The notes beneath the pieces are model-generated. The model was not told the origin of the DNA and did no database searches. It worked only from the letters and a program-made list of their open reading frames with translations. Both the position numbers and the translations under genes were made by a program. A DNA stretch of 63,998 nucleotides, counting the filler, from Rhizaria sp. SCN 62-66 (lineage: Eukaryota), in the NCBI GenBank assembly GCA_001724265.1. It is 4 parts of 4 records of this genome, joined end to end, with 100 filler letters (N's around TTAATTAATTAA, not from the genome) between each part and the next. Parts side by side here need not be neighbours in the genome. Positions count along the whole stretch, not along the records: positions 13,704 to 39,433 come from MEDY01000525.1; 3 more parts are not named here. The stretch is one strand, 5' to 3'. Shown in pieces: positions 8,101 through 34,585 of this stretch (position 1 is the first letter of the stretch; the number at the start of each line of letters is the position of its first letter).

Positions 8101-9081
8101 GGGCGGGCGCCGATGATGCACTCGCAGACGCAGTCGCGGTGGCAGCAGCAGCAGCAGCAGCAGCAGCGGCGGCAGCGGCGGGCGCGTTGGTGACAGAAGC
8201 CGGGCGAGCAGCGTTGCCACTGTTGTTACTGTTCATGTTCATGTTGTAGCTGCTGGCGCTGGTGCTGGGGGGCACGCCGGTGGCCGAGCCGGGCGGAGAG
8301 CGGTAGCGCGGATGACTGTGGCCGTGGCCGTGGCCGTGGCCGCTGGCGCTGGCGCTGGCGCTGGCGAGGGCGAGTGCGTTGGCGTTACTGTTGCTGCCGA
8401 GGGAGGCGTTGCTGATGGTGCTGCCGGGGCCGCTGGCAACGCCGCTGTTGAACCTGTTGTTGTACTGCTGCTGCTGCTGCTGTAACTGCTGTTGTTGTTG
8501 AAGCTGCTGTTGTTGGAGCATAGCGAAGTTATTCGTCATACTAGGAGGACTCGTGTTGCTGTTGTTCGCAGAGGCCGTGGCAGCGGCGGCGGCGGCGGCA
8601 GCGGCGGCGGCAATAATGCTGAGGTCAGACTGAGAGAAGCCACCGAGTCCGCCCGTGTGCTGAAAGAGGCCGGGGGGCAGAAGCGCGGAAGTTAGGCCGC
8701 CCATGGGCAAAGTCAAGCCGCCCATCGCCATCTGGGAATTTAGGCCGCCCATCGCCATCTGGGAAGCCAGGCCGCCCATGGGCGAAGTTAGGCCGCCAGC
8801 GGCAGCGGAAGGCGGCAGCATCATCCCACCCTGCAGCAGCTGTTGCTGCTGTTGCAGATAGTTGCCATTCACGTCGTTGCTGCCGCTGCCGTTGTTGCCG
8901 CCGCTATTGAACGACTGAATGGCAGCCAGCGCCGCCAGCGCAGCAGCCGCAGCATGGTCGTTGCTGCCGCTGCCGCTGCCGTTCGGGCTGCCACCACCAT
9001 GTTGTTGCTGCTGCTGCTGCTGCTGCTGCTGTTGTAGGAGCTGTTGCTGCAACAGCAGCTGTTGGGGACTGAACTGAGGAG

Positions 9082-9128
<47 letters not shown>

Positions 9129-10485
9129 TGCTGCATCTGCATCTGTTGCTGCATTTGGCTGATGATGGCAGCAGCTGCCACCGCGGCAGCAGTCGCCGTG
9201 TTCGAGCTGCCAACATGGCTGCCGCTGTTCAAAGTGTTCATGGCGTTCATGTTGTTGTTGCCCAGCACGTTGACGGCGCTGATGTTGCTGTTGAGATTGC
9301 TGTTGAGCCCCAGGCCGCTGCCGCAAGCGCTGCCGCCGAAGCCGCTGCCGCCGCCATTGCTGCTGCCAAAGCCGATGCCGCTTCCGGGCCGTGACCCCGG
9401 GCCAGAGCCGGGGCCTGAGACGGGGGCGGTGGCGTTGTAGTAGAAGTTGTTGTTGTTGTTGTTGTTGCCGAGGGCGTTGTTAGCGTTGTTGGCACTACTG
9501 CTGAAACTATAGTTGTTGTTGTTAATGTTGTTGACGTTGTTGTTGTTGTTGTAGACGTTCGTGTTGCTGTTGTTGTTGTAGTAGTTGCTGCCGTTGACGT
9601 TGCTGTTGCTGAGGCTGTGCGTGTTGACCGCGGTCGTGGTCGGACTGGAGCCCGAGACGGCGACAGCCCACTGCCCGCTGCCGGCCCGCACGTGCTAACT
9701 CAGCGCGGCGGAGTGAACGAGGGCGGCGGAGTGACCGTGGGCAGACGAGTGACCGTGGGCAGACGAATGGTTGCCGCCGGTGCTCGAGGACGCTGAGAAG
9801 TGACTGTGCGCGTAGCCATTGTTGTTGTTGTTGTTCTGGTTATACATCAGCTGCTGCTGCTGCTGCTGATACTGTTGATGTTGCATCACATTCGCGTTCA
9901 TGTTGTTCATGTTGTAGGGCGGCGCAATATTGACGCCAGAGCCGGGGCCGGAGCCGGGGCCAGAGCCGCCAGAGCCGGCGCTGGCCGCGGGCAGCAGAGG
10001 CGACTGCGACTGCAGCTGCAGCGGCAGCGGCAGAGGCAGTGGCACTGGTACCGGCACCCCACCGCTGCCATACTGGCCGTGCGTTAACGCGGCGTTACTG
10101 TTAAGATTGCTATTGCAGTTAGCGGGGTAGCCAGTCATGCTGCCGCCGCCGCTGCCGCCGCCGTAGCCGCCGCCGCCACCGCCGCTGCCGACGCCGACGA
10201 CAGTGTTGCCGCCGACGCCCGAGTTGGCGACACCGCTGGCGCTAGCGCCGGCACTGAAGACGGAGAGGGAGGGCGGCAGCGAGAAGCCTGAGGCGACCGA
10301 AACGGCGTCGTCGTTGACGTTGACGACGGCGACCGCGTTGCCGCTGCCGAGGCCGCTCAGGTTGTGGCCGCTGCCGTGGCCGTGGCCGAGACCGAGGCTG
10401 TGCGCGGCGTTGGAGTTGGAGTTGGCGTTGACATTCACAGTATTGTTGTTGTTGCTGTTGAGAGACAACAGCTGAAGCTGCTGCA

Positions 10486-10522
<37 letters not shown>

Positions 10523-11079
10523 AAACTGCTGCTGGTACAGCTGTTGTTGTTGCTGCTGCTGTTGCTGCTGCGCGTTGTTCGCAAAGTACTGCTGCTGCTG
10601 CTGCTGCTGCTGCTGTTGTTGTTGCTGCTGTTGTTGCTGGTTAGAGCTGTTGGCAGCCATCACTTGTTGTTGTTGGTGTTGTTGCTGCTGCTGTTGGTGC
10701 AGCTGCTGTTGCTGCATCGGCAGTTGCTGTTGGAAGTGGTGGTGCGGCCGGGACAAGCCGAGCGCAGCAGCAGCCGCAGCCTAGAGTCGCCATAAACAAG
10801 AGATGGAAGCGGGGAAGACAACAAGGCGAGGTATAGAGCGCAAATGGTGAGGTTAGAGTTCTAAACAAATATAGACATACAATACAGTAAAAATTACACA
10901 ACGTGGCATGAAATCAGTGTGATATGCCATAATATATCTCGCCAAATGTGTGTTTTAGCGCACCTGGTTGCCGAGATGCGGGGTGGCGGCGGCGGAAAGT
11001 AGGCCGCTGGTGGCCGAGCTAGGGGCCGAGGGGGGTCCGGCGAGGGGGCTCCGCATCAGCATCCCGGGCCCAACCAAGC

Positions 11080-11111
<32 letters not shown>

Positions 11112-11588
11112 GGCTGCTGCTGTTGAAGCTGCAGCAGTGAGTTGGCGGTGCTCGGGATGTTGACGTTGGCATTGGCGTTGTTGTTGGTGGCCGACATGAG
11201 GTTTGTGAGGGCAGTCGCAGCCGAGTTGGCAGGAGACACTGGCAAATCAACACGTAAACCGCCGCCACCGCCACCACCGCCGCCGTTGCTGCTAGCGCTG
11301 CTGCTGCTGCTGCTGTTGTTGTTGTTGCTGTTGCTGTTGTTGTAGCCTGTGTTGCTGGGGGCAGTGAGTGAAAGAGATAGCGCGAGCTGCTGCGCCAGCG
11401 GGGGCAACGAGCCGTAGGCGTTTACAGCAGCAGCGGCGGCTGCATTGCCGCTGCTGCTGGCATGATCAATCGCATTGCTGCTATTGCTGCTAGGGTTGTT
11501 ATTCAGAGCATGCAGGTGCATGCTGCTGCTTTGGGCATGGGTCGGCGTTGGCCGCGGCGCAAACAGTGACGAAGACAAACCAAACGCG

Positions 11589-11635
<47 letters not shown>

Positions 11636-12072
11636 GCTGTGGTTGATGTTGTTGGCATTCGCACTCGTAGCGTTACCAATGTTGAGTCTAGAAGGACCGA
11701 CGAGAGGCATCGCAGTGTGGTTGCCGTTGTTGTGATTCATATTACCACTACTAATCATATCCGTGTTGGAAGAAGAGCTCACATTGGTGATGCTGATCGC
11801 GTCAACACCAGTGCTGCTGTTGCTGTTGTTGCTGTTAATGTTACTGTTACCGCTGTTGGCGACGCCGATGTTGGTGCTGGCGGCCACGGCGGCGGCGGCG
11901 CTCGAGGTCGGCGTCGTCGCCGAGGGCCAGGCGGGCCACAGCCCGGTCCCACCCGCGCCATTCACGCCGCTGCTGTTGCTGCCACCCACGGCCGAGGCAG
12001 AGTTCGCAGCGTTGTTGTTGTTGAGGTGAGTGGGGCTTTGCTCCTCGATGTTGTGTGTCAGCAGCAAACCGT

Positions 12073-12109
<37 letters not shown>

Positions 12110-12361
12110 AGAGCTGACATGAGCGCTGGCGCTGGTCGTAAGAGGCAGCGCATTGAGCGGGGGGAACGACAGCTGCGGCAAGAACACGGCAGCGTTGTTG
12201 TTGGCACTGCCACCGTTATTTGGACTACCAGCACCGGATCTGGCGTCAAGGGCGGCAGCAGCGGCAGCGGCGGCAGCGGCGGCGGCGTTAGCGTCGTAGT
12301 AGAAGCTGCTGCCACTGCCACTGCCGCCGCCGGGGCCGATGTGGGCGGTATTACTGCTCAT
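2124..12361 (-). CDS. PUM: Giant Pumilio/PUF RNA-binding protein (~3300 aa); exons 12361-10964, 10780-6768, 6618-2124; in-frame TAG at 9697-9695
   Basis: Eight PUF repeat cores in canonical order: GGGRQLQ, LAHYVLQ, FGCRVVQ, HANHVVQ, FGCRVVQ, FGNYVIQ, CASNVVE, FANYVVR, then YAKRVI. Two phase-compatible introns (GTGCGC..TAG, GTACGT..TAG). Q/N-rich N-terminal half; ends in TAA. Confidence 0.85.
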
Positions 12362-13288
12362 CAAGGCGTCTCAGCGGGCGCTGCGGAGGCTGCAACTCAA
12401 CAGCAACAGAGCGGGACTGCGTGAGAGAGAGAACTGCGGAGGCTTCCTAAGAGGCGGGGCGCAGCGGCGACAGGACGCGGGCGCCGGGGGGCTCGGAAGG
12501 CTCTCCGCGGGGGCGGCGGGCGCGCTCTCGGGGCAGGGCTCGATCGTGCGCGTGCGCAGGGGGCTTGCGAGGCGCGGGCGCGGGCAAACACGGAGAGAGC
12601 GCCGTAGGTAGTGACAGCGCAGTGGAAACGGCGTTGAGGGCACACGGGGGAACAACTGCAACGCGCGGGCAGACTCAATCACGAGGGCCAGTGCAGTCGC
12701 GGGGGCGCACAGGGGTTAAGGGCGCTGCGTTGGGGCGCGATAGTGAGTTTTGTGAGGAGACAAGAGGGTGCGAGGCAGGAGTCGGAGAAAGGACAGGAAA
12801 GGAGTTGTTGCAGCGTGAGATATAGTGCGAGAAGAAGAAAAAGCGGAAAGAGGCGCATAAAAGCTGAGTACAGCGCGGGTTAAAGCCCGTTGGCAGAGCG
12901 TTGCAGTTTGCGCGGCCCCGAAGGCGGCCCCAAGAGGGGTGCGTGCGCCCCTGGCAAAGGTTTGTCAAAGGGCGCTGCAGAAGAAAGCATTTGGCGTTAG
13001 TGTAGCGCGCAAACCGAGCGCTAAGCTCTCAGTGCACTTGTTAAAGTATTAAAAAACAGCAGCAGTGCCAATCTCAATTATAACCACGCACACGAGTGCA
13101 CACACGCGACGCAGTGACCAAACTGGAATTAGATACAGCTTCCATCACCCCCGTCGCTATCGCTTGGTTCCGAAAAAAACCGCCGCGCAACAATGCCGCA
13201 GGCGAGCGCGTTTGCGGTAAGGCCTGAGGTCATCTTGGAAAGGATACACGTCATTGTGCCTTTGCTAAAAGCAAGTGTATTCACTACA

Positions 13289-20209: not shown

Positions 20210-23200
20210 ATGAGCGCGGATGACGACGAGTTTGACTACGGCCTGGCCTCTGCTCGCGTGGTTTACGCGCCGTATCCGCCCACTGTTTCAGCAGCGTCTC
20301 GCGCAGCGCCCACGCCGGCCACGACCCTGGGCCCGTCATCAGCCACGTTCTCCGGTACGGCGTCCCCTCAGGCCGCCGCAGTGGTCGCCGCGACGGCTGC
20401 GGCGGCCCTGGCCCGCGCCAGCGCCGTGGCCGCCTCGGTCGGCGCGAGCACATCCGGCGCGAGCTCCGGCGGCGCGGGCGGTGCGCGTGTGGGCGCTGCC
20501 GGAGCCGGTGCGCTGGGCGCTGAGGGCGCGCGCGTGCGCGTGGTGCCGCTCTGGCAGCAGGATCTCTGGCAGGCGTCCGCGCCGCCGTCACAGCAGCAGC
20601 AGCACGAGCAGCAGTCTCCGGCATTACCGCATGTGTCCCAGCATCAACACCAGCATCTGAGCCAAGGTCAAGGACAGGGTCGAAGTCCTCTGGTCTCTGC
20701 GCTCGCCTCTGGCTCTAGCTCTGGCTCCGGCGCGCTGACCGGCCCCGCCATCGTCGAGCTAATCGGATTTGAGCCCACGCCCAGGCCCACGCCCGCGCCC
20801 GCCTCCACGCCCGCCGCCGCGACGCCTGCGCCCATCGCCACCACCACGGCCGCGCACGCGGCCACTGCGACGGAGCTTCCTGTGCTCTCGGTCCCGCTGG
20901 CGGCCGCCGCGCCAGGCCCAGGGGCGGCTGCGGCTCACTCCAGCGCGATCCGGGCGACATCCGCTGCCGCTGCCTCTGCCAGTGCCGCATTGGCATCAGG
21001 CTCTACGGCCTCAGGCTCGATGGTCACGGACTCGATGACTCCTACAGGTAGTTTGGCCACCGGGTCAATGCCGTCCGGCCATATGCTGACGGGGGGCGTG
21101 GTGCTTGGGGCAATGGCGGGTGGCGGTGACAGCGACAGCGACGGAGACTATCGCGAGAACGCGCGCGGATAGCAGTCGCAACCGACACAGTCTCAGTCGA
21201 CACAGTCTCAGCCATCACAGACGCAGTCTCAGCCCTTGCAGTCGCAGTCGGAGCTCCCCACTTCGACTCAGGAGCAGACACAAGAGCAGCCCCAGCTGCA
21301 GGCGCAGTCGTCGCTGTTGTCCATGCCGCCGTCGCTGCGGAGCCTGCAGTCGCTTCGCACGGGCTCTTCGCTGGCGTCCCCGTCGCTGGCCTCGCCGACC
21401 GGCGGACAGCCCTGGCCGCTGGCGCTGACCTCGATCCGCGACAGTGTAATGGGCACGCCGGTGCACGCTATTTCAGCTGCAAACGGAGGGTTTAATTACG
21501 GCTTTATTCCCGGCGCCGGTGCGGGCGCGGGCGCAGCAGGCGCGATGGCCTCGCCCGCGCTAGTGCACGCGCAAGCGCACGCGCTCCAGCCTGGGCATCT
21601 CGGCGGTGGCTACGTTAGCGTTGGGGCGTTCGGACTTGCGTCGCCCGCAAACTCCGCCACGCACTCCGCCACGCCCTCCGCCGCGCACTCCGCCTTACAG
21701 TCGCAGACGACGCCGCAGGCCGCGGCCGCGCCCTCGGGCTGGTTTCCCAAGCCCGCGCACACGCCCCAGCCCGCGTATCTGCCATCGCAGTCAATGTCAT
21801 CGCTGCCGCAGCCGTCCCGGCTGCACGTCGACGCGATCGATGCGTCCGCAGAGGCTGCAGAAACTGCGGGGGCTACAGGGGCTGCAGCGGCCGCGGCGCT
21901 CGCCAATCAAGGCGCTGTTGATGCCGCTGCCGCTGCTGCCGCTGCCGCCGCTGCTGCCGCTGTTGCGGACGCACGGAGGCAGGAGCAAGAGCGGGTGCGG
22001 GCGCAAGCACAAGCTGAGGTCGAGGCGAAGGCTGCGGCCGAAAAGGCTAAAGCTGCCGCTGAGGCCGAGGCTGCTGCCAAGGCCAAAGCGGAGGCAGACG
22101 CAGCGGCTAAGGCGAAGGCTGAGGCAGAGGCTGAAGCTGAAGCTGCCGCTGAGGCCGCTGAAGCTGCCGCTGAGGCCGAGGCCCGTGCGCTTGCCCGTGC
22201 TCGCGCGGAGATCGAGGCCAAGGCCAAGGCTCGGGCAGAAGCAGAGGCAAGAGCGCGGGCCCAGGCCAACGCTAAGGCCGAGGCTGAGGCGGCTGAGCGG
22301 GCGCGCGCTGAGGCCGCTGCGGCCGCTGAGGCTGAGGCTGCGGCCGCTGCTGCGGCCGCCGAGGCTGAGGCGCGGGTCCGGGCTGAGCGCGAGGCTGCCG
22401 AGGCTGCCGCAGCTGCCGCGGCCGCCGTGGCCGCCGCTGCTGCTGCTGCTGCTGCTGCCGAGGCCGCGGCCCGCGCTGAGGTCGAGGCCGCTGCGCGCGT
22501 GGAGGCCGAGGCGCGCGCGCGGGCCCATGCGCAGGCACAGGCGCAGGCGCAAGCTGAAGCGGACGAGGCCGCCGCGCGGGCCAAAGCAAAGGCTGAGGCT
22601 GAGGCCGCTGAGGCAGCGGCTGCTGCAGCAGCTGCCACTGCTGCAGCAAAAGCGAAGGCTGAGGCTGGGGCTGAGGCTGTTGCCGTCGCCGCCAGTGCTC
22701 TTAATGCAAGTGCTGCTGGTACAGGTGGCGACGACGAGGTCTACACGTTTGACATCGACGACGACGACTACGGCGACAACGGAAATTACAACAGCGCCAG
22801 CTTGTACAACGCAGGCGGCTACGCCAGCGGCCGCGGCTTTGGCGACAGTGCCGACGGCGACCATAGCGCGGGCGCGAACGCCATCTCGGTGCCGCCTGCG
22901 CCCGCCGCCGCCGCCGCCGCCGTCCCCGTAAGCGCGTCTGCGCGCCCTGCCGCGGACGCCGCAGCTGTGCCCGCCGGCGGCAGCGACGACGACGACGACG
23001 ACGACGGCACGGGGCTGTACGACAACGACTGGGCCGTTGAGAGTGTGCCCGTCACTGCGCGCGAGCAGCCTGAGCAGCCGCCGCAGCAGACACAACAGCC
23101 GGCGCTTCAGCAGGCGCAGGCACATACGCAGACACAACCGCAGTCGCACATGCAGACTGCCTCGGTGCTTGCCTCGTCTCCCCCCGTCGCAAGTGTTTCG

Positions 23201-24841
23201 GCAACAGCCCACCCCAGCGCCGAGTCTGGCGCCGAGGCCGAGGCCGTTGCCAGCGGTGTCGGCGGCTTTAACGACTTCAACGGCAGTGGTAGCGGCGAGT
23301 ACCACGTCGAGGACTTCGAGTTCGACGACAGCGCGCGCCGCGAGGTGCCTAGTGCCCGACAGGAGGCGCCAAACGATGTTGCTGCTTCCAGCGCTTTGCT
23401 TGCGCCTGATAGCTCTCTCCCTGCAGATTCCAACGCTCCGCCTGAGCCTGTCAGCGGTGCGCCTTTGACGGGGCGGCGCAGCGGCGAGCTGAAGCTGGGC
23501 ACTGTAGCCGACAGTGCTAACCTTGTCCCAGGCTACGGTGCTAATGCCGTATATGGTTATGAATACGACTTCTTCAGTGACAACTACGGTGCCATAAGCC
23601 CCTCTTTCGCGCCAGATCCGAAGCAGAAGCTCGCGTCAGCGTCAGTCCCCGTCGCGCTCACCGCACCACTAGCAACCGCTGTCGCAGTGACCGAGCCTAT
23701 CGTGGCCATCCCTATATTAGCTCCAGCTGCGCCAGCGCCCGCTGTGACATCTGTGCCCGCCTCTGTCGCTGCAGCTCCGATTGCTGCTCCCACTGCTCCA
23801 ATTGCTGCTTCCTGGCCCGCACCCGCGCCTATATCCACGCTTGTTGCTGCTCCGCAGGCCTCAGCGCCGCGCAGCGTGTTTGCGGCGGCGGGCGGCGGCG
23901 CTGGCGCTGGTGACGGCGAAGATGACTGGGCCTTCGAGGACACGGAGCCTTCCGCGTCTTCTGTGCCGGCCTTGACCCAGCCGACGGTCTTTGCGCCCGC
24001 GCACGAGTCGGAGGCAGCGCGCGATTTGCAGCCCATTGTGCTAGCACCAGTCACTGTTGAGGCGCAGTCTCACACGACCGCGGTTGCGCCCACTGTGGTA
24101 CATGTGCTGAAGTCTGCTGATGCCTCAGTCGCTGCAGCGGCGCCCGTTGCTCTGCCGTCTGCCGCCGACGTCCTGTCTGCAGACGATTTGTGCGACGGTG
24201 ACGATGATCCGTACGCCAACGAAGGCTTTGAAGAATACGAGGACGACTGGGCAACTGACGACGCTGTGCCTGTCGCATCTGAAAGCGCGGCTGTTGTTGC
24301 TGTTGTAGGAGGCGCAGTCTCGCGGAAAGCGACATTACGTAAAGCCACGGCACGCCTTGAAGCTTTGCGGCAGAACACAGAGCGACAGAGCGTGGTGCGG
24401 CAAAGTAGTGCTCGTGATGACGCAGACGTTGTGGTTGTGCAAGGCACAACGAGCAATGCAACCGCGAATATTAACCAGGATACGAACCAAGAGTCGAACT
24501 TGGAACAGAGTGCGGTGCTGACGCAGCAGTCGGTGGCACGGGTGGCAACAGAGCGGCCCCTGTCGGATAATGGCAACGATGCTGATTTTGATAGCTGGAT
24601 GGCACAGCTGGGCAGCGTGACGCCAGCTGCAGAGCCCACAGCGACATTGTCCCCTTTGGTGGTCGCTGCACCAGCTCTGTCGAAGCCGAAGGTGTCCAAG
24701 TTCAGGAAAAACAAATCACCTTTGCTCCCTGAGGTTCCCACCAAGCCAGGCGAACTCAACGATGAAGAGCAAGACATGCTTGCACTAGTGTTACCTTTGA
24801 ACGAAGCGGCCAGCTTAGTTGACAACGAATACTACTTCTGA
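20210..24841 (+). CDS. Large intronless disordered/coiled-coil protein (~1540 aa) with acidic-aromatic motifs; in-frame TAG at 21170-21172
   Basis: ORFs 20210-21172 and 21236-24841 share a frame, separated only by one TAG with coding-like sequence on both sides; Ala/Glu/Lys helix at 21900-22680; ends in TGA. Confidence 0.7.
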
Positions 24842-25310
24842 AATCACGTGAAATTACTCAATAATACATTTGCCTTTTGGAATCACTCACTTACGGTATA
24901 CTAATACATGTACTTAGTAAGCTTACTAGTGTACAACTAGTACGAAGTACATGTACTAGTACACGTACATGTATAGTCATATTTCGCTTCGATAATCAGA
25001 ACTCGAGAGTTCCGAAAAACATGACACTAACGTAGGTAAAACAACAATCCAAGATTTTCTCAACATCCACGAAAAGCTTGCTTTGTTTTTCGTCCAAGAA
25101 AACTCTCGAATCGTTGTAAGCCTTTTCTCGTCAGATACTTTGTTACTTTTACTCTTATTATTGACAGTCGATATACATTTCACAAGTGTTTTATAATAAC
25201 ATTTTTATTATACTGTATGCAACATCCCTCTTCAATTAGCTCCTCAACTCCCGTTCACAACCTCACGCTTGTTTTGCTACGATCTAGCTACTGGCAAAGC
25301 TGTACTTTGT

Positions 25311-28300
25311 ATGAGTGATACGGAGAGGCATCTCAAGGAGCTCCTTGACAAGGAGGCAGGCGAACAACAACAACAACAACAACAGCAGCAGCAACAACAA
25401 CAACAACGCCTCGATGCAGCAGCTCAGGTGGAGCTGGCGGAGCCTTCGGCACTCTCGACTGCCATCACAAGCTCCTCAACACGGACAGCCCCGCTTACGC
25501 CTGCAGCGACAATACAAAGCTTGCAAGATTCCAGCAATGCCGCGCATGATGAGCTATCCCGCCTCTTGGCTGAGGCCCAGAGGACAACTGAGAGCCACGC
25601 AGACGCAACATCAACGACAAACACTGTGGGAGCTAATCCAGTAACCACTCCAGCTGCTGCTACTGCTGCTGCTGCAACTAGCACTCAGGCTGCTGCTGAT
25701 GCAAGTGTTGCATCAATGGACGTTCCAGGTGCTATGTCTTCCGGGGCAGAACTGTCTCTTTTGCGGTTGCGTGCTAAGATGATTGAGACATCGCAAGCTT
25801 TTCTCTCGCTGTGTCAGCAGTTAGCTGTCGCTGATGAAGCTTTAGATCATGCAGTGTCGCATTTCAATTCGCAAGACTCAAGCAAGGCACATTTACACCA
25901 CGCTGATCCCAAGCATGTTAAACATCTCGAGCTTGTTGCATATAATATCAGCAAGAACCTGACGCGTGCGGCGCCTCAAGCAAAGAAAGCACTTGTTGCG
26001 TATAATTCGGCTGTAGCTGATGCATCTGCAGTTGCGCAACCTGCTGCGCCGGCAACCACGGCAAACGCAGCTTTTCGAAGTATACCGGTCACTGTTGCCC
26101 TGGATACTGCTCAGATCGCCCGTACAGCGGACAAAAACTCTGTAACTGCTTTCTCTCTTCAGCAGTTATATTCGGATATGATCGAAACAGAGATAGCGGC
26201 ATTCGCAGTGCGTCAACAAGAAGCTATTGCGAGTAAAATTCTTCGCATCGCAGTGACGTGTGACGCATCAACAGACGACATCAATGCAAAACAAGAGCGT
26301 TTCATGATTGCGTTCCGCAACATCACTTTTAAGAAGAGCATTGCTGTGAGTCTTGCCAAAATGGCGCGTGCTGTATACAACTTGGCGACTACTATGGTTG
26401 GCAACTCTGTGAATTCTACTGCTTCTCCTGCATTAGTAGATGTGGTTGTAACCATCGTTGCTGCTCCAACCATTGCTTCTGCGGTGACTTTCGAATCCGA
26501 GTCTGCTTCAAGTTTGCTCTTGAAGCTGCGTCAGGCAGATGCAGAGTTTCTGACTCTGCTTCAGCAAGCATCTAACTTGCAAACAGATCTTCTTGATGCA
26601 AGGGTTCGCTCTCAGTCCCAAGACACGCACGATGAGACTGGGACTCTGAAGAGTGGGGCACACAGTCTCTGCGCGAAGATGATTACTTCTATGGGACAAA
26701 CAAAATGTTTGCTTGCTGCATACGACCTTGCTCTCGCTGATGCTGCTGATGCTGCTACTGCTGCTGATACTGTTAATGCTGATGATGATGCTGCTACTGC
26801 TGCTGATACTGTTAATGCTGATGATGATGCTGCTATGATGATGATGCTGCTACTGCTGCTGATACTGTTAATGCTGATGATGATGCTGCTACTGCTGCTG
26901 ATGATAATGCTGATAATAATGCTGATAATAATGCTGATGATAATGCTGATGATAGTGCTGATGCTGCTGTTAGTGTCCCTTATCCTACTGAGAACTCTGA
27001 TGATACAGCAGCGTCAACAACCACGGCCCTTGAACATCTGTGTGCGGAGTTGACTGATGTAGAGAAAACGTCCCGCACTATCCGCCAACAAGTATCTATT
27101 GCTTATGCAGCTCTTCTTAAAGCGAGGGTGTGTTCCCAGTCACAAGATCTTAATGTCGCGCAGCATCAGCGTGATCAAATCGAGCTTCTTGAGAGCACGC
27201 TCCGTGACCTATGCATCAAGGCGAATTTAAACAAAGACCTCGCCAAACGGTTGCTTAATGCGTACAACCCGGCTACTGATGCTGTTGCCAATGAAACCTC
27301 TCATATCGATGTAAACGGTCTTGCAAATACTGTGGTGAACATTGCCATGCAGGTGCAAATGCTGTGCAGCCAGGCTGCTGTACCGCCTATCGCTGTTACT
27401 ACTTCCCCGAGTGTCTATGCTGCCAGCACGATTGCTGCTACTGCTAAATCCGATGTTTCTGCCACTGCGCCAACGGTCGCACATGTAACTCTTAAGCAGT
27501 TGCAAGCTGAGGTGACCAAGACAGAACAAGTCGCTTGTGCGTGGCGCCAACAGACTGTTTCCGCTAACGCGGCAGTTCTTCTTGGTGAAAAGCTTTGTAC
27601 TCAGTTGCAAAACCCGGACAAGGCGGAGCAACAGCGCACTAAAACTGAGCGTCTCAGGATTGCGCTTAACACCGCTACTTTCCAGTCCGAAACTGCGGCG
27701 TATCTTGCATCAGCGGCGCGTGCGTTGTACAACTTGGCTTCTACTGTAAGGACAATTGCTGGGGTTATGACTGATAATCCGATCCCTGATGCAGTCGTTG
27801 CAACAACTGTTGTGCCAACCTCTGAATATTTGCGGAAACCTGTATCTATCGGACAACTACGTTCGAACAGGCTCAAGACAAACGCACATTTGAAAAAGCT
27901 TTGTTGTCAGGCAGTTCACACTCAAAGTCTTCTCGAAAAAATAGCAAGCTCCCCGAAGACGCAAAATAACGAGCGCGAGATGATTGCGGCTCGCAATCTC
28001 TGCACGAATATGTTTTCTGTCATGGATCAAGCAAAATATTAGCTCAGCACGAACGACGTAGCTGTTGCTACGTTTGCCTCAGTTTCCTTTCCTGCCATTG
28101 TTGCAACTGCAACAAGTGCGTTCTTTAAGCAGCTGCCCTATGATATGACCAGGACAAAAGAAACGTATCTCGCAATGCACAAGAAGGCAGTTGTTGCAAC
28201 TGCAACAAGTGCGTTCCTTAAGCAGCTGCCTTATGATATGATCAGGACAAAAGAAACGTATCTCGCAATGCACAAGAAGGCAGTTACAGCTCTCGCGGCT

Positions 28301-30796
28301 CTTGATGAAGCGAGGGCTCGTCCACTGTCGCATAACCCACGCAAGGCACAGCAACAGTGGAGTGAGATTGAGTGTCTTTTGGACGTTGTTCGTGATCTTG
28401 GTAGGGAGGTAGCGACTGCCTTTGATCTTGCTCAAGAGGCGTGCAGCGCGTACAAGGCTGAGATTTGTTCTTCTAGTTCTAGCGTGTCTTCTCCAAACAC
28501 GCCCCTTGAAAATGCGCGTGCGGAGATGACGAAGACCAAGAGCGCTGTCAACGCACTCGATCTTCGGCGGGCTATAATCATGAGGGATTTGCGTGCCGCA
28601 CAGGACCGGTCTTTTTCACAAGACATCTCCGAAGCTCTGCAACAGCGCATGAAGTTCGAGAATCTTAAGAGTGCGGAGCGTGACATTGACGCCAAGATTA
28701 TATCAGCCACATCCTGTGCCAAGACAGCATTCTATATCTTCAACTTGATTGCAGCAGCTACAACAGCAGATATTGCGATGTCTCTCTCCAAGAACTTGTC
28801 TGCTGGCACCGTTGCACCTGTCAGCACAGATGTCCCATCGTGCGTCTCTGCGGGTTTATTGTCGTCCCCCTGGGTATCAAATAGTAATTACATTGCACAG
28901 CTTACCACAACAATTTCTAAAACGCGGGAGAGCACTGACGAGATCATTGAAGAAACGAATATAGCAATCAGTAAGCTGATAAAGGCACGGACATTGAAGA
29001 AGCCTAAACTTCATAATGAAGCGCAGGTTGCTCAAGCACGCACAAACAAGCTTGAACAGAATGTGAAACAACTCTGCAAGCATGCAGCACAAGCGGGCAG
29101 AAAACTAAAGAGTCTGGTCCAGAAGTACAACATGGTGGCAACTAAACTGGCTACTTATCAGCGGTCTGCAGCGTCATACGTCTCAATTGAATCTAAAACC
29201 ACCCGCAATGACGTGATCAACACAAAGGCGAATAACTGTAACCCAGAGGATAATCGTTCTGACAATTACAACGCTGACAACAACAAGGATCATGATGAAA
29301 ACAGCCAAAGCAACAACAACAACAACAATAGTAACGATAGCGACTGCAACGGCGCTGCCGAGCTTTCCAACAGCGATGATGACTCCGACTATGACGATCA
29401 CGATGATGAAAACAACAGCACGTCCATCGCAGACCAGATGAATCTCGCATGGGAGTTCTACTCAGCTACACTGCCGCGCTATGACTGTACCTGTGCGCCC
29501 TGCACTGACAGCGACTGTACGTGCGGGGCGCGGCGCTGCGTGGACGGCGTCAAGTGCGACTGTGCCGACGTGCCCGAGTGGTACCACAACCTGTTTGTGC
29601 AACGGCCCAATGTCTTACGCCGTGTACGCTGTCTTCTGAGGCGCGCAAACGTGTCGTCCTCGAATGCGGTAACCGATATTACGCCCTCGTTCTGTTCTGA
29701 TGCTGCCGATGCAAGCACAATTTTTGCTGCTTTTACGCATGTGCCGCTGCATCAGGTTCGTGTAGTTGTCCTTGGTCAAGACCCTCTGCCGCGCGAGAGC
29801 GGTGCGAACGGTTACGCATTTTGCTCGGACTGCGACAGCGTTGACAGCACGCATGACACCGTAGCTATCGTGCTGCAAGAGATGTACAACTGCACTGGTG
29901 ATGACATCCCAAAAGCTCACAATAGGCTTGATCAGACAAGGAACCCGCTATCCCGCATCATCAACTGCAATGACACAATGCCTCTGTCTAAACATGGCCA
30001 GTTTCTTGCCGAACAGGGCGTGTTGCTGCTACAGTCAGCGCTGACGCACGCAAACGGTGACTTACGCTCGCACTTGCACGCATGGCATCCGTTCACGTGC
30101 GCCATTCTGCGGCTCATTGCGCGCACAAACCCCAACGTAATTGTCGTGGCTCTGGGCGATATTGCGCGCGACATAGTCGTAACGTCGTTACACGGCGTCA
30201 GCGACTCGCTGCTGTGCGACTTCCGCTCTCAACGCGCCGCACACGAGATGGACATGGATATTTACACCGGTAAGTGCGACGAGTACGGGGTGTTGAACGA
30301 CAATGTCGATGCCAACGCAGTTCGTAGTGGCAGTAAGTCCGTGTTGCTGCCAGTGGATCAGGTCATTTTAGCCGGCAACCCATCTTCCAGCAACGATGAC
30401 CTCCGCACACCCGGCGCGCAGCACCAGTTCATCGGATCCGATGTCTACCGAAAGGTAAACCACCTCCTGACAGCACGCGGCAAGCACCCTGTACGCTGGC
30501 TGCCGGCTGAATGGCTTGGTCAACCGACTGATAGCCTTGGGTCAGAGTCAATGTCACAAGCTGATTCTGAGCAAGAGCAAGCTTTGAAGTCGCGTGACAA
30601 AAAAAAGCGGCGTCCGCGCAGGCGTCCGCGCATGCGTTCGAAGAAGACCGATGGCGATGCTGACCTGAATCAGGGCGAGTGCGCCAACGGCAATGACAAC
30701 ACGTTGACATATCAACAAAATGACTGCGCTGTCGAAGAAACTGGGGAGGAAGATATGTCGGAAGAAGAGGATAGCAATGTAAATAAGTCAAACTGA
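25311..30796 (+). CDS. Helical-repeat + Cys-rich + divergent uracil-DNA glycosylase fusion (~1830 aa); frameshift ~26835, in-frame TAG 28040-28042
   Basis: Three ORFs join into one: frame change inside a tandem repeat, then the same frame across the TAG. The C-terminal domain has family-1 UNG landmarks IFAAF..VRVVVLGQDP, ANGYAFC, LAEQGVLLL, H..AW..FT, FIGSDVYRKVNHLL..GKHPVRW. Confidence 0.75.
26737..26968 (+). repeat. 39-bp tandem repeat (ADDDAATAADTVN) decaying into GCTGATAATAAT units; contains the frameshift
   Basis: GCTGATGATGATGCTGCTACTGCTGCTGATACTGTTAAT repeated; one unit is truncated at about 26835. Confidence 0.85.
28098..28285 (+). repeat. 93-bp in-frame tandem duplication (2 copies, 3 mismatches)
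   Basis: TTGTTGCAACTGCAACAAGTGCG...CACAAGAAGGCAG starts at 28098 and again at 28191. Confidence 0.92.
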
Positions 30797-31399
30797 CGAT
30801 GGCTCTAATTGTACTACGTACCATATTGCTGCGTTTAGACGAGAGCAGTGGAACAATGATATGCGCGAAGGCGCAACAAAGAAAATTATGATGACGAAGA
30901 TTCGATGAAAGCAAGAGTAATAACGAACATTCTGAGGTTAAGAAGGCTCAGGGGACTGGGCTGTCAGGTACCCGTCAGTGTAATAAAAATTGTAACGGAG
31001 TATACATGTACGTACATGTACAAAATTTAAAAAAAAAATAGCTACAGATAAGGAGGTCACATAATGTTTAAAGTCGAATGATGACTCCAACGAGTACAAT
31101 ATACAAGTATGAATCCACGACTGCAATACGTATTGATACATGAGATGAGTGCTGCGACGCGAGCGCTTCGCGCATCACTGCGAAGTGGAGCTGCTGCACG
31201 CGTGCACTTTCGCGATGGCTTAAAATGCTCAAATATATAGGCTTGCTAAGAGGAGTTTCACCCCTACATATCACGATCCAGAGATGCTTTAATTTAAAAC
31301 AAATCGGTTTCATGGTGGGTATGATGAATTCTACTATTTTCGCTCAACTTGATATATTCCCCCAATTGTGAGATCTATTATAGATGGGAGGACGCTTGT

Positions 31400-31900
31400 C
31401 ACCTGAAGAGGGAGACTTTAAGTTGGCGCGCGATGCGACGGACACCACGACCAGCGCGGCGGAGAGCACTGTCAAGGCTACAGCCGCCCGTGCCAGCCGG
31501 TGATAGATCGTCGTCGTCTGGAGGAGTTCGCTGCTACCGTGTTCCGTCAGAAGCGTCTGGCCTTCGCCAAGAAGTACCGCACTCACAACTGGAGCAAGAC
31601 CATATTCACCGACGAGAAGGTCTTGAGGATTGGCCGCCGTGGCGCCGCCGTTCACTACCGTATTGGCGAGTTGCCGGTCATGGAGGTCAGCGACTGCGGT
31701 GGCGCGGTCGCGCATCTGCAAGACGCGGCGAATCGCCCCATGTCTCCGAGGGGGCGTCATCCGGCAAGACAACGCTCGGTGCCATGTGGCTCGGGAATCC
31801 TCGGCTGCCTTAAGCGCCGTCGCTCAACGTGCTGCCCAACCGGCCCGCCCAAGAACCAGTTCCTCCAGGAAGAGGAATCCTTCACATGACATGACTGGTT
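31400..31900 (+). mobile_element. Degenerate Tc1/mariner (DDE) transposase remnant
   Basis: QKRLAFAKKYRTHNWSKTIFTDEK (first catalytic Asp block) and, in another frame, GVIRQDNARCH (second Asp block); frameshifted and internally deleted. Confidence 0.85.
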
Positions 31901-32487
31901 GAGGGCTACTAATCGCGGTAAATTTATAATTGTCAAATAAAATAAAATAATATAAATATGATATATTTCATTAATAAATTATGCCTTCATTTTATGAAAA
32001 CTAAAATTACATTTTATGGAAAAGACTTTGATACTAGTTAAAATGTTTAATAAATAATTTAAGTATTCTTTAATAAAATATAATATTTTTTTGTCGCCAC
32101 AAGCAGTATATTTTCAGACAGCTATAACTCAAAATTGAAAACGGTCAGAAAAAGGCAATTAAACATATTAAACACGCTAATGTACAATAAATTATTAAAA
32201 AAGGTTTATATTTGTATTTATTTGCATTTATCTAAATATATCACTATACAATTATCAATAATCAAAGTATTCTAAAAATAAAAATGATTTTATGTATATT
32301 ATATGATTTCATAAAAATGGTATATTTACTACATGTTGAAACCGTATTTTGATCTCCTCGCTGCACTTAAACACGACAATCGAGAGTTGGTGACTGCGAG
32401 CCTGAAGACGTCAAGACCCGAAGACCGGCGGAGAAATTGAGCTGATCATCCTGCGCGAAGGAGTTCATGGATTGTCTAAGCGATATA

Positions 32488-33177
32488 ATGTCTCAAAGTA
32501 AGGCTTCTAAGTGTATTACTCTGTTTGTTATGTTGCCTGTTGCGTTTTGTAGATATGCTGACTTCGCTCGTCCGCGCTCGCCGCGTTGTTGCCGCTACTG
32601 GTTCCGCGTTCGCCGCCGCCGCCGTCACTGTTCCCTCCCGGTACGCTCTTTTTCGTGTGTGTGACTATATATTACGTATCTCTGTTTACATTACGGGATT
32701 TTCTTACTCCTGCCTCTGCGACTCTCCCCGTTTGTCCTCTCCGCAGCGCTTCTTCATTCGAGGTCAAGACTATCACCCCCGGTGATGGCAAGAACTTTCC
32801 TAAGGTACGGTGATTTTCACCTCCCTGGGTTTCTTAACATCAGGTTCATTGTTGGAAAGCCACTCTTGCTCATGCTATCCTTATTTCTTTCTGCCCTTTT
32901 ACAGTCTGGTGACAAGGTCACCGTCCACTACACTGGCACCCTGACCAACGGCACTAAGTTCGACTCTTCCCGCGACCGCAACCAGCCCTTCGTCTTCACC
33001 ATCGGCCGGGGCCAGGTCATCCGCGGCTGGGATGAGGGCGTTGCCAAGCTTTCTGTCGGCGAGCGCGCTACCATCGTGTGCCCCCCCGAGTACGCCTACG
33101 GCCCCCGCGGCATCGGTGGCGTCATCCCTCCCAACGCCACCCTCAACTTCGACGTCGAACTCCTCAAGATCAACTAA
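32488..33177 (+). CDS. FKBP1: FKBP12-type peptidyl-prolyl isomerase with N-terminal presequence; exons 32488-32497 (tentative), 32553-32640, 32747-32804, 32905-33177
   Basis: [68 protein letters not shown]; all introns phase-compatible; TAA. Confidence 0.93.
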
Positions 33178-33750
33178 GCGCGCTACTCCCAGCATCTGCA
33201 ACGAAGCGACTCGTGTTTATCTATTCACTGCCAAACAGCGGGCGCGCGCGGCGGCTGTGGCGGCTCTCTGCAGCCCGCCACGTTGAGTCGCGTGTCCCTA
33301 GAGAAAGGCTCGTTGACAATACATTATGCAATCCTTGCCTTGAGCTTTCACATCTTCCACGCCTGATACGTGTCACCCTTTTCTGAATTGAACTCGGTCA
33401 TTAATTCATTCAGATTCGAGCTTTTCTTCTTACGGGCGCGTTTAGCGTGTTTGCATTGTCAGCATACGTAGCTTCTAGCCGTTCGTTCTCATCATTTTTC
33501 AGCAGCAAAGAAAGTTGGTCTCAATATCAAGAGCTATCCCGAACCACACTTTCCGTCTACGACATTCCCAACATGATATGAGACGTCTAAGTTTATATTA
33601 TATTTGTTTTTGTTTTTATTTTTCCGTTAGTGCTTTTTGGCGCACAGGAGCGCTGTCTATATTCTCGGAGACGACGACACTCTTAACACCTCTGAGCATC
33701 ACTTTATATCGCTCCTCGGAGAGCTTCCATCCAACTTTCACAGTCTTTGA

Positions 33751-34585
33751 ATGAGCTCTGGACCCGAGCCTGTTCCTAACAGCAGTGGCGCTGCGCCGTC
33801 AGGCCAAAACAACGAAGATGACGTACGTTACATCCCTACATCTCTCGTCGCATTAGAGTGCTCACCGTTCCCCGTTCTCACTCATCTCACGCTTCGCAAT
33901 CTCATTTGCTTTCTTTTGCATTATAGCTTATCGCCGGGCTGAAGGGTCTTTCCGTGCCCGCCAGGACGCCCGCCGCAGATGCCGACGCCGCGCTGTATGC
34001 GCGTCTGTGCGCGCTCCGTGGCGTCGACCCATCGAAGCCCAATGCCGCCGCGCGCCCCAAGCCTTCCGCAACCGACGCTGCCTCTGTCTCGGCTGCTACC
34101 GATTCCACTGCTGCGGCTGCGCCGTCTGCCGCACATGCCCTGCTGGCAGCCATGCGTGCTGGCGGCGGCGGCAATGGAGGTGTTGACAACGATGACGATG
34201 ATGATTCGTGGTGGCAGCAGCGACAAGGCAGCAGCAGCAGTATGAATCTTGGCTCTGGCTCTGGCTCTGGTTCTGGCTCTCTTGCAGCTGAGACTGCTGC
34301 CGCAGCGGACGCTGTTGTTGCCTCAGCCTCGGCCGACGCCGCCACCGCGTTGGCCGCCGCGCGCGCTGCGCTGCAGTCTCAGCCACATCAGAACGCCAAT
34401 CTCGCTGGCTTTGGCGCCCTCGACGACAACAGCGACGGCGACGTTGACGCTGATGGAGACGCAGAAGAGGACGGCGATGCAGAGGGTGAGTGGCTATGGG
34501 GAGCTGACTCGGCCGACGCGTTGGTGGCGGCGTTGCAGAGGCAAAATGACAAGAAGAAACAACAAACACACGAGCAGGCATTGCA

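What the first reader, a model, noticed from the sequence alone, without database searches (positions are those of the whole stretch)
29560..30500. Family-1 UNG with a rewired active site: candidate new-specificity glycosylase or modified-base reader
Seen: motif A is GQDPLP (canonical GQDPYH), the uracil-reading Asn in GVLLLN is Gln (GVLLLQ), and motif B HPSPLS is NPSSSN; the catalytic Asp and the fold landmarks are kept, with two insertions. Established: in human UNG Tyr147 excludes thymine (Y147A excises T), Asn204 selects U over C (N204D excises C) and His268 is catalytic; E. coli MUG has NPS in motif B. Inference: changes at all three positions suggest activity on 5-substituted pyrimidines, or a binding-only pseudoenzyme, perhaps in antiviral or epigenetic conflict.
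Basis: partly seen in the sequence, partly recalled or inferred. Interest (0 to 1): 0.75.

Follow-up and report, generated by a model that had tools for sequence, protein, structure and literature searches.

The report
Divergent uracil-glycosylase-like domain, altered pocket
A gene of an uncultured wastewater protist ends in a well-folded relative of the DNA-repair enzyme uracil-DNA glycosylase that has lost three of the residues that make that enzyme specific and fast, so it probably no longer repairs uracil and may bind or cut something else.

Summary
ORF 28145..30796 (+, 883 aa) carries a family-1 UNG fold at residues 475-795. The best PDB sequence match has E 1.3e-11, and the AlphaFold model matches human UNG on DNA at VIA Z 24.6. 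The motifs are GQDPLP, GVLLLQ and GNPSSSN. In the 145 best other family-1 hits these positions are Tyr in 138, Asn in 144 and His in 143.

Only three other lineages in about 1.8 billion representative proteins form a clade with it (SH-like support 100). All four lack the Tyr. The Asn-to-Gln and His-to-Asn changes are private to the window's species, and its sister has His and His.

The gene is not decaying. The ORF is intact. dN/dS against the sister locus is about 0.23, and 0.13-0.27 in the fold core. The two terminal branches are equal.

The best reading, still unproven, is a nuclear UNG-fold module that has lost efficient uracil excision and acts as a DNA or flipped-base binder, or as a weak glycosylase of altered specificity.

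Side finding: this lineage reads TAG as a sense codon, so the gene probably extends upstream to at least 26828.

Function, expression and the presence of a canonical UNG could not be tested.

The parts
28145..30796 (+). ORF of 883 codons (P0001) from the first ATG after the in-frame TAG to the TGA stop. The true start is uncertain.
   Evidence: four near-identical copies (99-100% identity) in public assemblies
26828..28042 (+). Upstream ORF in the same frame, separated from the UNG ORF only by TAG 28040-28042. It is probably part of the same gene, which would then be 1322 codons if TAG is read as sense.
   Evidence: in-frame TAGs inside conserved coding sequence of the relatives L001 and L002
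25200..27053 (+). Further upstream ORF in another frame, overlapping the next ORF across a GAT/GCT-rich 9-nt-period repeat (about 26700-27005). It may be the gene's 5' part, shifted out of frame by the repeat length.
   Evidence: in run X1 one contig skips 26815-26942 (128 nt), which by my arithmetic would put both ORFs in one frame. This is weak: side 29, flagged by the tool
28098..28283 (+). Tandem duplication of 2 x 93 nt (97% identical), giving a duplicated 31-residue stretch that holds the first ATG
29231..29434 (+). Asn/Asp/Ser-rich acidic low-complexity linker (about residues 363-430)
   Evidence: family D3
29486..29563 (+). Cluster of eight Cys (C448, 450, 453, 458, 460, 465, 471, 473) just before the UNG fold. 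All eight are kept in the sister sequence and four in P0004. A zinc-binding role is inferred, not shown.
   Evidence: AlphaFold pLDDT under 50 here; no Pfam family
29567..30529 (+). Family-1 UNG fold (residues 475-795)
29774..29791 (+). Motif A GQDPLP. Gln and the catalytic Asp are kept, Tyr147 is Leu548 and His148 is Pro549.
29810..29827 (+). GYAFCS, with the base-stacking Phe559 kept and a clade-specific Cys560
29894..29980 (+). Insertion 1 (about residues 584-612), present in all four clade members. Poorly conserved: 19% identity and dN/dS 0.86 against L001.
30017..30034 (+). GVLLLQ, where the uracil-reading Asn204 is Gln630
30191..30358 (+). Insertion 2 (about residues 683-738), shared only with the sister L001. 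Low model confidence, dN/dS 0.51.
30374..30394 (+). Motif B GNPSSSN. The catalytic His268 is Asn745 and the Leu272 position is Ser749.
30599..30646 (+). Basic cluster K819-K834 in the C-terminal tail. A role as nuclear localisation signal is inferred from composition only.

Best explanation
This is the C-terminal domain of a large protein of at least 883 residues, probably 1322 or more. The protein is likely nuclear and belongs to an uncultured GC-rich eukaryote.

[quoted passage not shown] The whole clade has lost the thymine-excluding Tyr.

In the window's species the domain has also lost the uracil-reading Asn (now Gln), the catalytic His (now Asn), the intercalating Leu (now Ser) and the Ser of the Gly-Ser loop. 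It keeps the GQDP turn with its Asp, the stacking Phe and the whole fold under purifying selection.

I infer that it no longer excises uracil efficiently. It most likely works as a DNA-binding or flipped-base-binding module with little or no catalysis, which anchors the long helical N-terminal part and the Cys cluster to DNA.

Shown: homology, fold, substitutions, clade, selection on the fold. Inferred: loss of uracil excision, DNA binding, nuclear location, zinc binding.
For: - Homology and fold: PDB phmmer E 1.3e-11. The AlphaFold core has pLDDT above 90, pTM 0.79. VIA Z is 24.6 to human UNG on DNA, with 222 of 224 residues aligned at rmsd 2.3.
- Substitutions sit at positions that are Y in 138, N in 144 and H in 143 of the 145 other best hits. 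Their roles are described in PMC8587785 (passages).
- The domain scores far below the ung equivalog cut-offs: 69-80 bits against 162-223 for the three best models.
- The pocket side chains differ in every clade member: Tyr site L/M/C/S, Asn site Q/H/N/N, His site N/H/H/H, Asp site D/D/D/E, Leu site S/R/L/E. Fold motifs and clade-specific motifs are kept. This pattern is expected if catalysis on uracil is no longer the selected function.
- Purifying selection: window against L001 over 372 codons gives dN 0.37, dS 1.59 and omega about 0.23. The fold core gives 0.13-0.27 and the insertions 0.51-0.86.
- The window's terminal branch is 0.31 against 0.30 for its sister.
- There is precedent for non-catalytic use of the UNG fold. 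Vaccinia D4 has a catalysis-independent role in replication (abstract of PMC1936997 in the listing). Gamma-herpesvirus UNG is a structural replisome element (abstract of PMC5934625 in the listing).
Against: - No assay was done.
- Asp546, Gln545 and Phe559 are all kept, as an active enzyme would need.
- Family-2 enzymes work without the His; E. coli Mug has PNPSGLS. Asn745 therefore does not prove inactivity.
- Gln for Asn keeps an amide that could still read a pyrimidine.
- The sister and the two other clade members keep the His, and two keep the Asn, so the clade as a whole may be catalytic.
- dS is near saturation and omega is an average over both lineages. A recent relaxation in the window's lineage alone cannot be excluded.
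- Of the 11 strain or relative differences listed inside the ORF, 7 are non-synonymous, 3 are synonymous and 1 is CAG to TAG. This is a subset picked by read support (184 more differences not shown), so it is not a rate estimate.
- No RNA evidence for this part of the gene.
Confidence: 0.4

Rival explanations
1. It is an active DNA glycosylase with a new specificity. Opening the pocket at the Tyr147 position lets it take 5-substituted pyrimidines (thymine in mismatches, 5-hydroxymethyl-, 5-formyl- or otherwise modified uracil). Gln630 and Asn745 retune recognition and leaving-group activation.
For: - The Tyr is lost in 4 of 4 clade members, replaced by L, M, C or S.
- Human UNG Y147A gains thymine excision (passages of PMC11289083).
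- A natural UDG with motif GQDPA excises uracil, 5-hydroxymethyluracil and xanthine (abstract of PMC5449639).
- The catalytic Asp, Gln and stacking Phe are kept.
- The fold is under purifying selection.
- Mug-type enzymes act with Asn in motif B.
Against: - In the window's protein the His, the Asn, the intercalating Leu and the Gly-Ser serine are all changed at once. In known family-1 enzymes each of these is nearly invariant or contacts DNA.
- The pocket residues are not conserved within the clade, which argues against one shared new substrate.
- No modified-base pathway genes were recognised in the window.
Confidence: 0.28
2. It is a decaying copy (pseudogene) whose active-site changes are neutral damage.
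For: - The Asn-to-Gln and His-to-Asn changes are private to this species.
- GC3 is 0.41-0.65 against 0.63-0.95 in neighbouring genes.
- There is a frame change in the upstream repeat.
- Most listed strain differences are non-synonymous, and small indels occur in the C-terminal tail.
- One related population has TAG at codon 739.
Against: - The reading frame is open for 883 codons and is the same in four assemblies.
- Omega is about 0.23 overall and 0.13-0.27 in the core.
- The terminal branch is no longer than the sister's.
- The model core is confident.
- TAG is not a stop in this lineage. All 5 in-frame stops read through in L001 and L002 are TAG, 3 of them followed by conserved UNG sequence, so the TAGs are not damage.
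Confidence: 0.1
3. It is simply this fast-evolving lineage's ordinary uracil-DNA glycosylase and still removes only uracil.
For: - It is a family-1 homologue with the catalytic Asp and stacking Phe.
- No second UNG could be looked for, because no genome is held.
Against: - Asn204 is N in 144 of 145 and His268 is H in 143 of 145 of the other best hits, and both are changed here.
- Scores are far below the ung equivalog cut-offs.
- The domain is fused to a very long non-repair-like N-terminal part.
Confidence: 0.08
4. The gene was acquired from a virus or mobile element and sits in a foreign island.
For: - About 24.8-33.9 kb of the window has 35-57% GC (one 400-nt bin at 24%, one at 58%) against 60-74% around it.
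- The gene's GC3 is lower than its neighbours'.
- The Atlas look-alike clusters are mostly viral UDGs.
- phrog_12143 matches at E 9.6e-19.
Against: - The relatives use the same TAG-sense code as the host-like genes.
- No viral hallmark or transposase family was found beside it.
- Viral and cellular UNG structures match equally well.
- The host gene FKBP lies inside the same lower-GC stretch.
Confidence: 0.08

Closest known systems
[quoted passage not shown]
   Same: - Same fold: VIA Z 22-25 over 215-232 aligned residues.
- Recognisable sequence homology.
- GQDP turn with the catalytic Asp, the stacking Phe, the GVLLL strand and the -PS- of motif B.
   Different: - Tyr147 is Leu, His148 is Pro, Asn204 is Gln, His268 is Asn, the Leu272 position is Ser, and Gly-Ser is Gly-Asp.
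- Two insertions.
- Below the Pfam and NCBIfam curated cut-offs.
- Fused to a Cys cluster and a long N-terminal region.
Engineered human UNG Y147A/C/S and N204D
   Same: - The clade's natural residues at the Tyr site (L, M, C, S) are small or flexible, like the engineered ones.
- The Y147A and N204D activities are in passages of PMC11289083. The C and S variants are recalled from memory (Kavli et al. 1996, not seen here).
   Different: - The engineered enzymes keep His268, Asn204 (in Y147A) and Leu272; the window's protein does not.
- No activity data exist for the natural proteins.
BdiUng (Blr0248) of Bradyrhizobium diazoefficiens, a UDG with motif GQDPA
   Same: A natural enzyme with a GQDP motif that lacks the Tyr. 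It excises uracil, 5-hydroxymethyluracil and xanthine (abstract of PMC5449639).
   Different: - BdiUng has a family-4-like overall fold, no classical motif B, and is bacterial and dimeric (same abstract).
- The window's domain is a family-1 fold.
- No sequence comparison was made here.
Family-2 MUG/TDG
   Same: Asn-Pro-Ser at the start of motif B; E. coli Mug has PNPSGLS (passages of PMC12001322).
   Different: - MUG has GINPGL with Asn in place of the catalytic Asp; the window has GQDP.
- All best sequence and structure matches are family 1.
Vaccinia virus D4 and gamma-herpesvirus UNG (UNG fold used as a structural replication factor)
   Same: - The UNG fold is used to hold a partner on DNA independently of catalysis (abstracts of PMC1936997 and PMC5934625 in the listings).
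- Divergent motifs.
   Different: - Those proteins are still active uracil glycosylases and are free-standing viral proteins.
- Here the partner-like region is fused and the catalytic residues are changed.
Nuclear genetic codes with UAG as sense and UAA/UGA as stops (rhizarian exLh UAG=Leu, Iotanema spirale UAG=Gln, Blepharisma table 15)
   Same: - In-frame TAG inside conserved coding sequence of this gene family.
- TAA or TGA at the ends of recognisable genes.
- Precedents in passages of PMC5304391.
   Different: - The organism is unidentified and GC-rich.
- The amino acid is not determined.
- No tRNA(CUA) was found in the window.

Membership tests
Family-1 UNG (UDG superfamily) | UNG alpha/beta fold | tested here: met
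   AlphaFold model with pTM 0.79 and core pLDDT above 90. Foldseek TMt up to 0.80. VIA Z 24.6, 222 of 224 residues of 9lnp_E aligned, rmsd 2.3.
Family-1 UNG (UDG superfamily) | Sequence reaches the curated family or equivalog score | tested here: not met
   Pfam PF03167 scores 22.9 bits against a cut-off of 24.3. NCBIfam TIGR00628 scores 68.8 against 185.75 and NF003592 79.7 against 162. Homology itself is clear (E 1.3e-11).
Family-1 UNG (UDG superfamily) | Motif A GQDPYH: catalytic Asp | tested here: met
   Asp546 in GQDPLP
Family-1 UNG (UDG superfamily) | Motif A: thymine-excluding Tyr | tested here: not met
   Leu548. The column is Y in 138 of 145 other hits.
Family-1 UNG (UDG superfamily) | Uracil-reading Asn at the end of GVLLLN | tested here: not met
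   Gln630. The column is N in 144 of 145.
Family-1 UNG (UDG superfamily) | Motif B HPSPLS: catalytic His and intercalating Leu | tested here: not met
   Asn745 and Ser749. The His column is H in 143 of 145. The Leu column is variable (L in 47 of 145).
Family-1 UNG (UDG superfamily) | Uracil excision, inhibited by Ugi | not testable with these tools
   Needs a biochemical assay
Family-2 MUG/TDG | Motif A GINPG (Asn instead of Asp) | tested here: not met
   The window has GQDP. The MUG motif is from PMC12001322.
Family-2 MUG/TDG | Motif B beginning NPS | tested here: inconclusive
   The window has NPSSSN, which resembles PNPSGLS only in three residues. No family-2 structure ranks among the listed best matches.
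BdiUng-type UDG | GQDPA motif on a family-4-like fold without a classical motif B | not tested
   Only the abstract was read; no sequence or structure comparison was made.
UAG-sense nuclear code (TAA/TGA stops) | In-frame TAG inside conserved coding sequence | tested here: met
   L001 975-977 and 1515-1517, and L002 668-670, are each followed by conserved UNG sequence such as the WLP..WL motif. L002 857-859 and 1040-1042 also lie in frame in the tail. Window TAG 28040-28042 joins two ORFs in one frame.
UAG-sense nuclear code (TAA/TGA stops) | TAA/TGA, not TAG, end genes with a recognisable C-terminus | tested here: met
   TCP-1 and FKBP reach the end of their Pfam profiles and stop at TAA. PUF, GYF and ABC stop at TAA; the DnaJ and DFP genes stop at TGA. 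The four TAG-ended ORFs have no family, and three run on in frame.
UAG-sense nuclear code (TAA/TGA stops) | Cognate tRNA(CUA) and identity of the amino acid | tested here: inconclusive
   No tRNA gene in the window and no Rfam match. Alignment columns at the TAG sites are uninformative. One CAG/TAG difference between populations at codon 739 fits Gln.

The most novel reading that the evidence does not exclude
A TAG-recoded, uncultured protist lineage has turned family-1 UNG into a small family of natural Tyr-less glycosylases or base readers for thymine-like or modified pyrimidines. The window's protein is a derived member in which the pocket (Leu548, Gln630, Asn745) recognises a 5-substituted or otherwise modified base. 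It tethers a large coiled scaffold to such sites, which would make it a new kind of modified-base reader built on a repair enzyme.
Probability: 0.2. Interest if true: 0.75.

Novelty: new variant of a known kind. Interest (0 to 1): 0.5.

Why it matters
[quoted passage not shown] Natural members that lack the thymine-excluding Tyr, the uracil-reading Asn and the catalytic His while staying under purifying selection are very rare. Only four lineages were found among about 1.8 billion representative proteins.

If active, these proteins would be natural counterparts of the engineered UNG variants now used as thymine and cytosine base editors. They would point to unusual bases in the DNA of an unstudied protist. 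If inactive, they would be a cellular example of a UNG fold reused as a DNA-binding module.

The accompanying evidence that this lineage reads TAG as a sense codon matters in its own right. It affects every gene model from these organisms, because standard gene callers split their proteins at TAG.

Tried and rejected
- **Whole genome.** None is held, so a separate canonical UNG could not be sought.
- **Expression.** No RNA holder is listed for the stretch. One polyA metatranscriptome run (X10) has contigs of about 94% identity over 25480-25853, 26427-26608 and 27392-27949 only, and none over the UNG part. Contigs cannot show absence.
- **First word-based protein search.** It found only the query; 8000 candidates were scored, and I think low-complexity words swamped the list. 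A later search with region 436-800 found only P0001 and P0003. The profile of the C-terminal half found only P0005 and P0002 before a gap to E 5.5e-13.
- **Metagenome scan.** The call with the gappy alignment A3 failed. It was repeated with the narrower A4 and gave L001 and L002.
- **Labelled phylogeny.** A tree with named cellular, NCLDV and herpesvirus UNGs was not done, because the protein libraries carry no names. The unlabelled FastTree shows only that the four-member clade is one branch.
- **Viral affinity.** BFVD matches (best E 4.9e-11, Solivirus UDG) are no better than cellular PDB matches.
- **N-terminal region.** There is no Pfam family above noise, no Atlas look-alike and no significant internal repeat by BLAST. 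My impression of recurring helical modules is by eye only.
- **Neighbouring ORFs 31.3-31.9 kb.** They looked transposase-like to me but matched no Pfam family.
- **Amino acid encoded by TAG.** The alignment columns are uninformative.
- **Table 6 (TAA and TAG both sense).** Rejected, because TAA ends the conserved genes.
- **Motif-coordinate script.** Coordinates come from the residue numbers and arithmetic.
- **Supplementary files of the papers.** Not seen.
Full report
**What is there**

The window is a GC-rich (55-74%) eukaryotic contig. It encodes PUF, GYF, TCP-1, FKBP, a DnaJ-domain protein and an ABCG-type transporter. No whole genome is held for it. Near-identical DNA occurs in wastewater and bioreactor metagenomes of several studies.

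The finding lies in ORF 28145..30796 on the + strand: 883 codons with a TGA stop. Four copies of this protein at 99-100% identity exist in public assemblies.

- Residues 475-795 are a family-1 UNG domain. phmmer against PDB sequences gives family-1 UNGs from E 1.3e-11.
- An AlphaFold model built on a 149-row alignment has pTM 0.79 and pLDDT above 90 through the core.
- The model superposes on human UNG bound to DNA with VIA Z 24.6, 222 of 224 residues aligned, rmsd 2.3. Foldseek agrees.
- The motifs are G544-QDPLP, G625-VLLLQ and G744-NPSSSN.
- In the 145 best non-clade hits of an exhaustive HMMER search, the corresponding columns hold Tyr in 138, Asn in 144 and His in 143.
- The catalytic Asp, the preceding Gln and the stacking Phe are kept.
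- The position of the intercalating Leu is Ser, and Gly-Ser is Gly-Asp.
- Both insertions exist. The first is common to the clade; the second is shared only with the sister sequence.
- The domain falls below the Pfam cut-off (22.9 against 24.3 bits). It falls far below the NCBIfam ung equivalog cut-offs.

**Relatives**

Scoring every one of 1.84 billion representative proteins gave 1775 hits at E<=0.001. Only four stood clearly above the mass of ordinary UNGs:
- P0002 and P0003 are two pieces of one gene, seen whole on locus L001. They are 53-60% identical to the window's domain.
- P0004 is 41% identical.
- P0005 lies on locus L002 and is 38% identical.

Two further searches of the 5.8-billion-protein collection added no member. 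In a FastTree of the 149 rows the four form one branch with SH-like support 100 and a stem of 0.73.

The pocket residues differ in each member (order: window, P0158, P0159, P0004):

| Site | Window | P0158 | P0159 | P0004 |
|---|---|---|---|---|
| Tyr | L | M | C | S |
| Asn | Q | H | N | N |
| His | N | H | H | H |
| Asp | D | D | D | E |
| Leu | S | R | L | E |

The loss of the Tyr is therefore a clade character. Asn-to-Gln and His-to-Asn belong to the window's species alone.

**Not a decaying copy**

- A Nei-Gojobori comparison of the window with L001 over 372 aligned codons gives dN 0.37 and dS 1.59, so omega is about 0.23.
- The three fold-core segments and the Cys-cluster segment give 0.13-0.27. 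The two insertions give 0.86 and 0.51.
- dS is close to saturation, so the ratio is approximate and is an average over both lineages.
- The window's terminal branch (0.31) equals its sister's (0.30).

Points on the other side:
- The gene's third-position GC (0.41-0.65) is lower than that of most neighbours (0.63-0.95).
- Of the 11 differences to related populations that read laying listed inside the ORF, 7 change the amino acid, 3 do not, and 1 turns CAG into TAG. The list is the best-supported subset (184 more differences are not shown), so it is not a rate estimate.

**TAG is a sense codon here**

- In L001 the UNG reading frame passes through TAG at 975-977 and 1515-1517.
- In L002 it passes through TAG at 668-670, 857-859 and 1040-1042.
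- After the L001 TAGs and the first L002 TAG, conserved UNG sequence continues, for example the WLP..WL motif.
- All five in-frame stops are TAG; none is TAA or TGA.
- In the window, TAG 28040-28042 is the only interruption between ORF 26828..28042 and the UNG ORF, which share a frame.
- Two more TAGs (21170 and 9697) join long ORFs in frame.
- Genes with a recognisable end stop at TAA or TGA.
- One related population has TAG where the window has CAG (Gln739).

Codes of this type are known from a rhizarian (UAG=Leu) and from Iotanema (UAG=Gln) (passages of PMC5304391). The amino acid could not be fixed here. No tRNA gene or Rfam family lies in the window.

Consequences for the gene model:
- The TAGs are not damage.
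- The gene probably starts upstream, giving at least 1322 codons from 26828.
- It may include ORF 25200..27053, which is out of frame across a 9-nt-period repeat. One contig of run X1 skips 128 nt there, which would restore the frame, but the tool flags such joints as unreliable.

**Anatomy of the protein**

From the N-terminus the protein has:
- a long region without known family;
- a 2 x 93-nt tandem duplication;
- an Asn/Asp-rich acidic linker;
- a cluster of eight Cys, fully conserved in the sister and half conserved in P0004;
- the UNG fold;
- a tail with a Lys/Arg cluster (residues 819-834).

Zinc binding and nuclear import are inferences from composition.

**How it most likely works**

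The literature read here gives these roles in canonical UNG (passages of PMC8587785):
- Tyr147 excludes thymine.
- Asn204 reads N3 and O4 of uracil.
- His268 gives the catalytically important hydrogen bond to O2.

Changing Tyr147 to Ala or Asn204 to Asp yields thymine or cytosine excision (passages of PMC11289083).

The window's domain has lost all three residues, together with the Leu and the loop Ser, yet keeps its fold under selection. The clade's pocket residues vary from member to member. I therefore favour a module that still engages DNA but has little or no uracil-excising power. It would serve as the DNA-binding end of a large scaffold protein (confidence 0.4).

Precedents for non-catalytic roles of UNG folds:
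- Vaccinia D4 (abstract of PMC1936997, listing).
- Gamma-herpesvirus UNG (abstract of PMC5934625, listing).

The main rival is an active glycosylase for 5-substituted pyrimidines (0.28). It is supported by the clade-wide Tyr loss, the retained Asp, Gln and Phe, and the natural GQDPA enzyme BdiUng, which takes 5-hydroxymethyluracil (abstract of PMC5449639). This rival is more plausible for the P0004- and L002-type members, which keep the Asn and His.

The remaining readings are each about 0.1 or less:
- decay;
- an ordinary UNG;
- recent viral acquisition.

**Comparison and novelty**

The domain works on the frame of a family-1 UNG and descends from that family. It fails four of the family's defining sequence features and the curated score thresholds. 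It should be filed as a divergent UNG-like subfamily, not as a uracil-DNA glycosylase. It is not a family-2 enzyme, because it has GQDP rather than GINPG.

I rate it a new variant of a known kind. It is a real and rare feature with an open function. The TAG-sense code of its host lineage is a second point of interest.

**Limits**

- No assay was done.
- No genome is held.
- There is no RNA evidence for this part of the gene.
- No named phylogeny was built.
- Supplementary files of the papers were not seen.
- The Y147C/S activities and the names of the canonical DNA-binding loops are recalled from memory.

Noticed in passing
window 28040-28042, 21170-21172, 9695-9697 (- strand); L001 975-977 and 1515-1517; L002 668-670, 857-859, 1040-1042: TAG lies in frame inside coding sequence, and in L001 and L002 inside conserved UNG sequence. 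Recognisable genes end in TAA or TGA. The lineage appears to read TAG as an amino acid (Gln is the likeliest guess, not shown). Standard gene callers have therefore split its proteins, for example P0003 and P0002.
   Followed up: partly
window 26700-27005: A GAT/GCT-rich repeat with 9-nt period lies where ORF 25200..27053 and ORF 26828..28042 overlap in different frames. One contig of a DNA run skips 128 nt here, which would put both ORFs in one frame. The window may carry a repeat-length variant or an assembly error.
   Followed up: partly
window 28098-28283: A perfect-register tandem duplication of 93 nt (97% identical) duplicates 31 residues around the first ATG of the UNG ORF.
   Followed up: no
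window 24800-34000: This stretch has 35-57% GC (one 400-nt bin at 24%, one at 58%) inside a 60-74% GC contig. It holds the UNG-like gene (GC3 0.41-0.65) and also the FKBP exon (GC3 0.85). No mobile-element or viral family was recognised in it.
   Followed up: partly
window 30359, 30374, 30438-30509, 30604-30780: Related populations in the metagenomes differ from the window mostly by amino-acid changes at the C-terminal end of the UNG fold (G744S, S765F, Y768D, T776A, K780E, E789K) and by small indels in the basic tail. P0152 carries four of these changes (S765F, T776A, K780E, E789K).
   Followed up: partly
window 21173-24841 and 6743-12364 (-): These are very long low-complexity ORFs (Ala/Glu/Lys-rich, Gln/Ser-rich, Asn-rich) without any Pfam family. 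They are typical of this contig's genes.
   Followed up: no
P0008, P0009 (hits): Two UNG homologues of 420 and 475 aa carry a C-terminal extension. By eye it resembles an RNase H domain. This was not checked.
   Followed up: no
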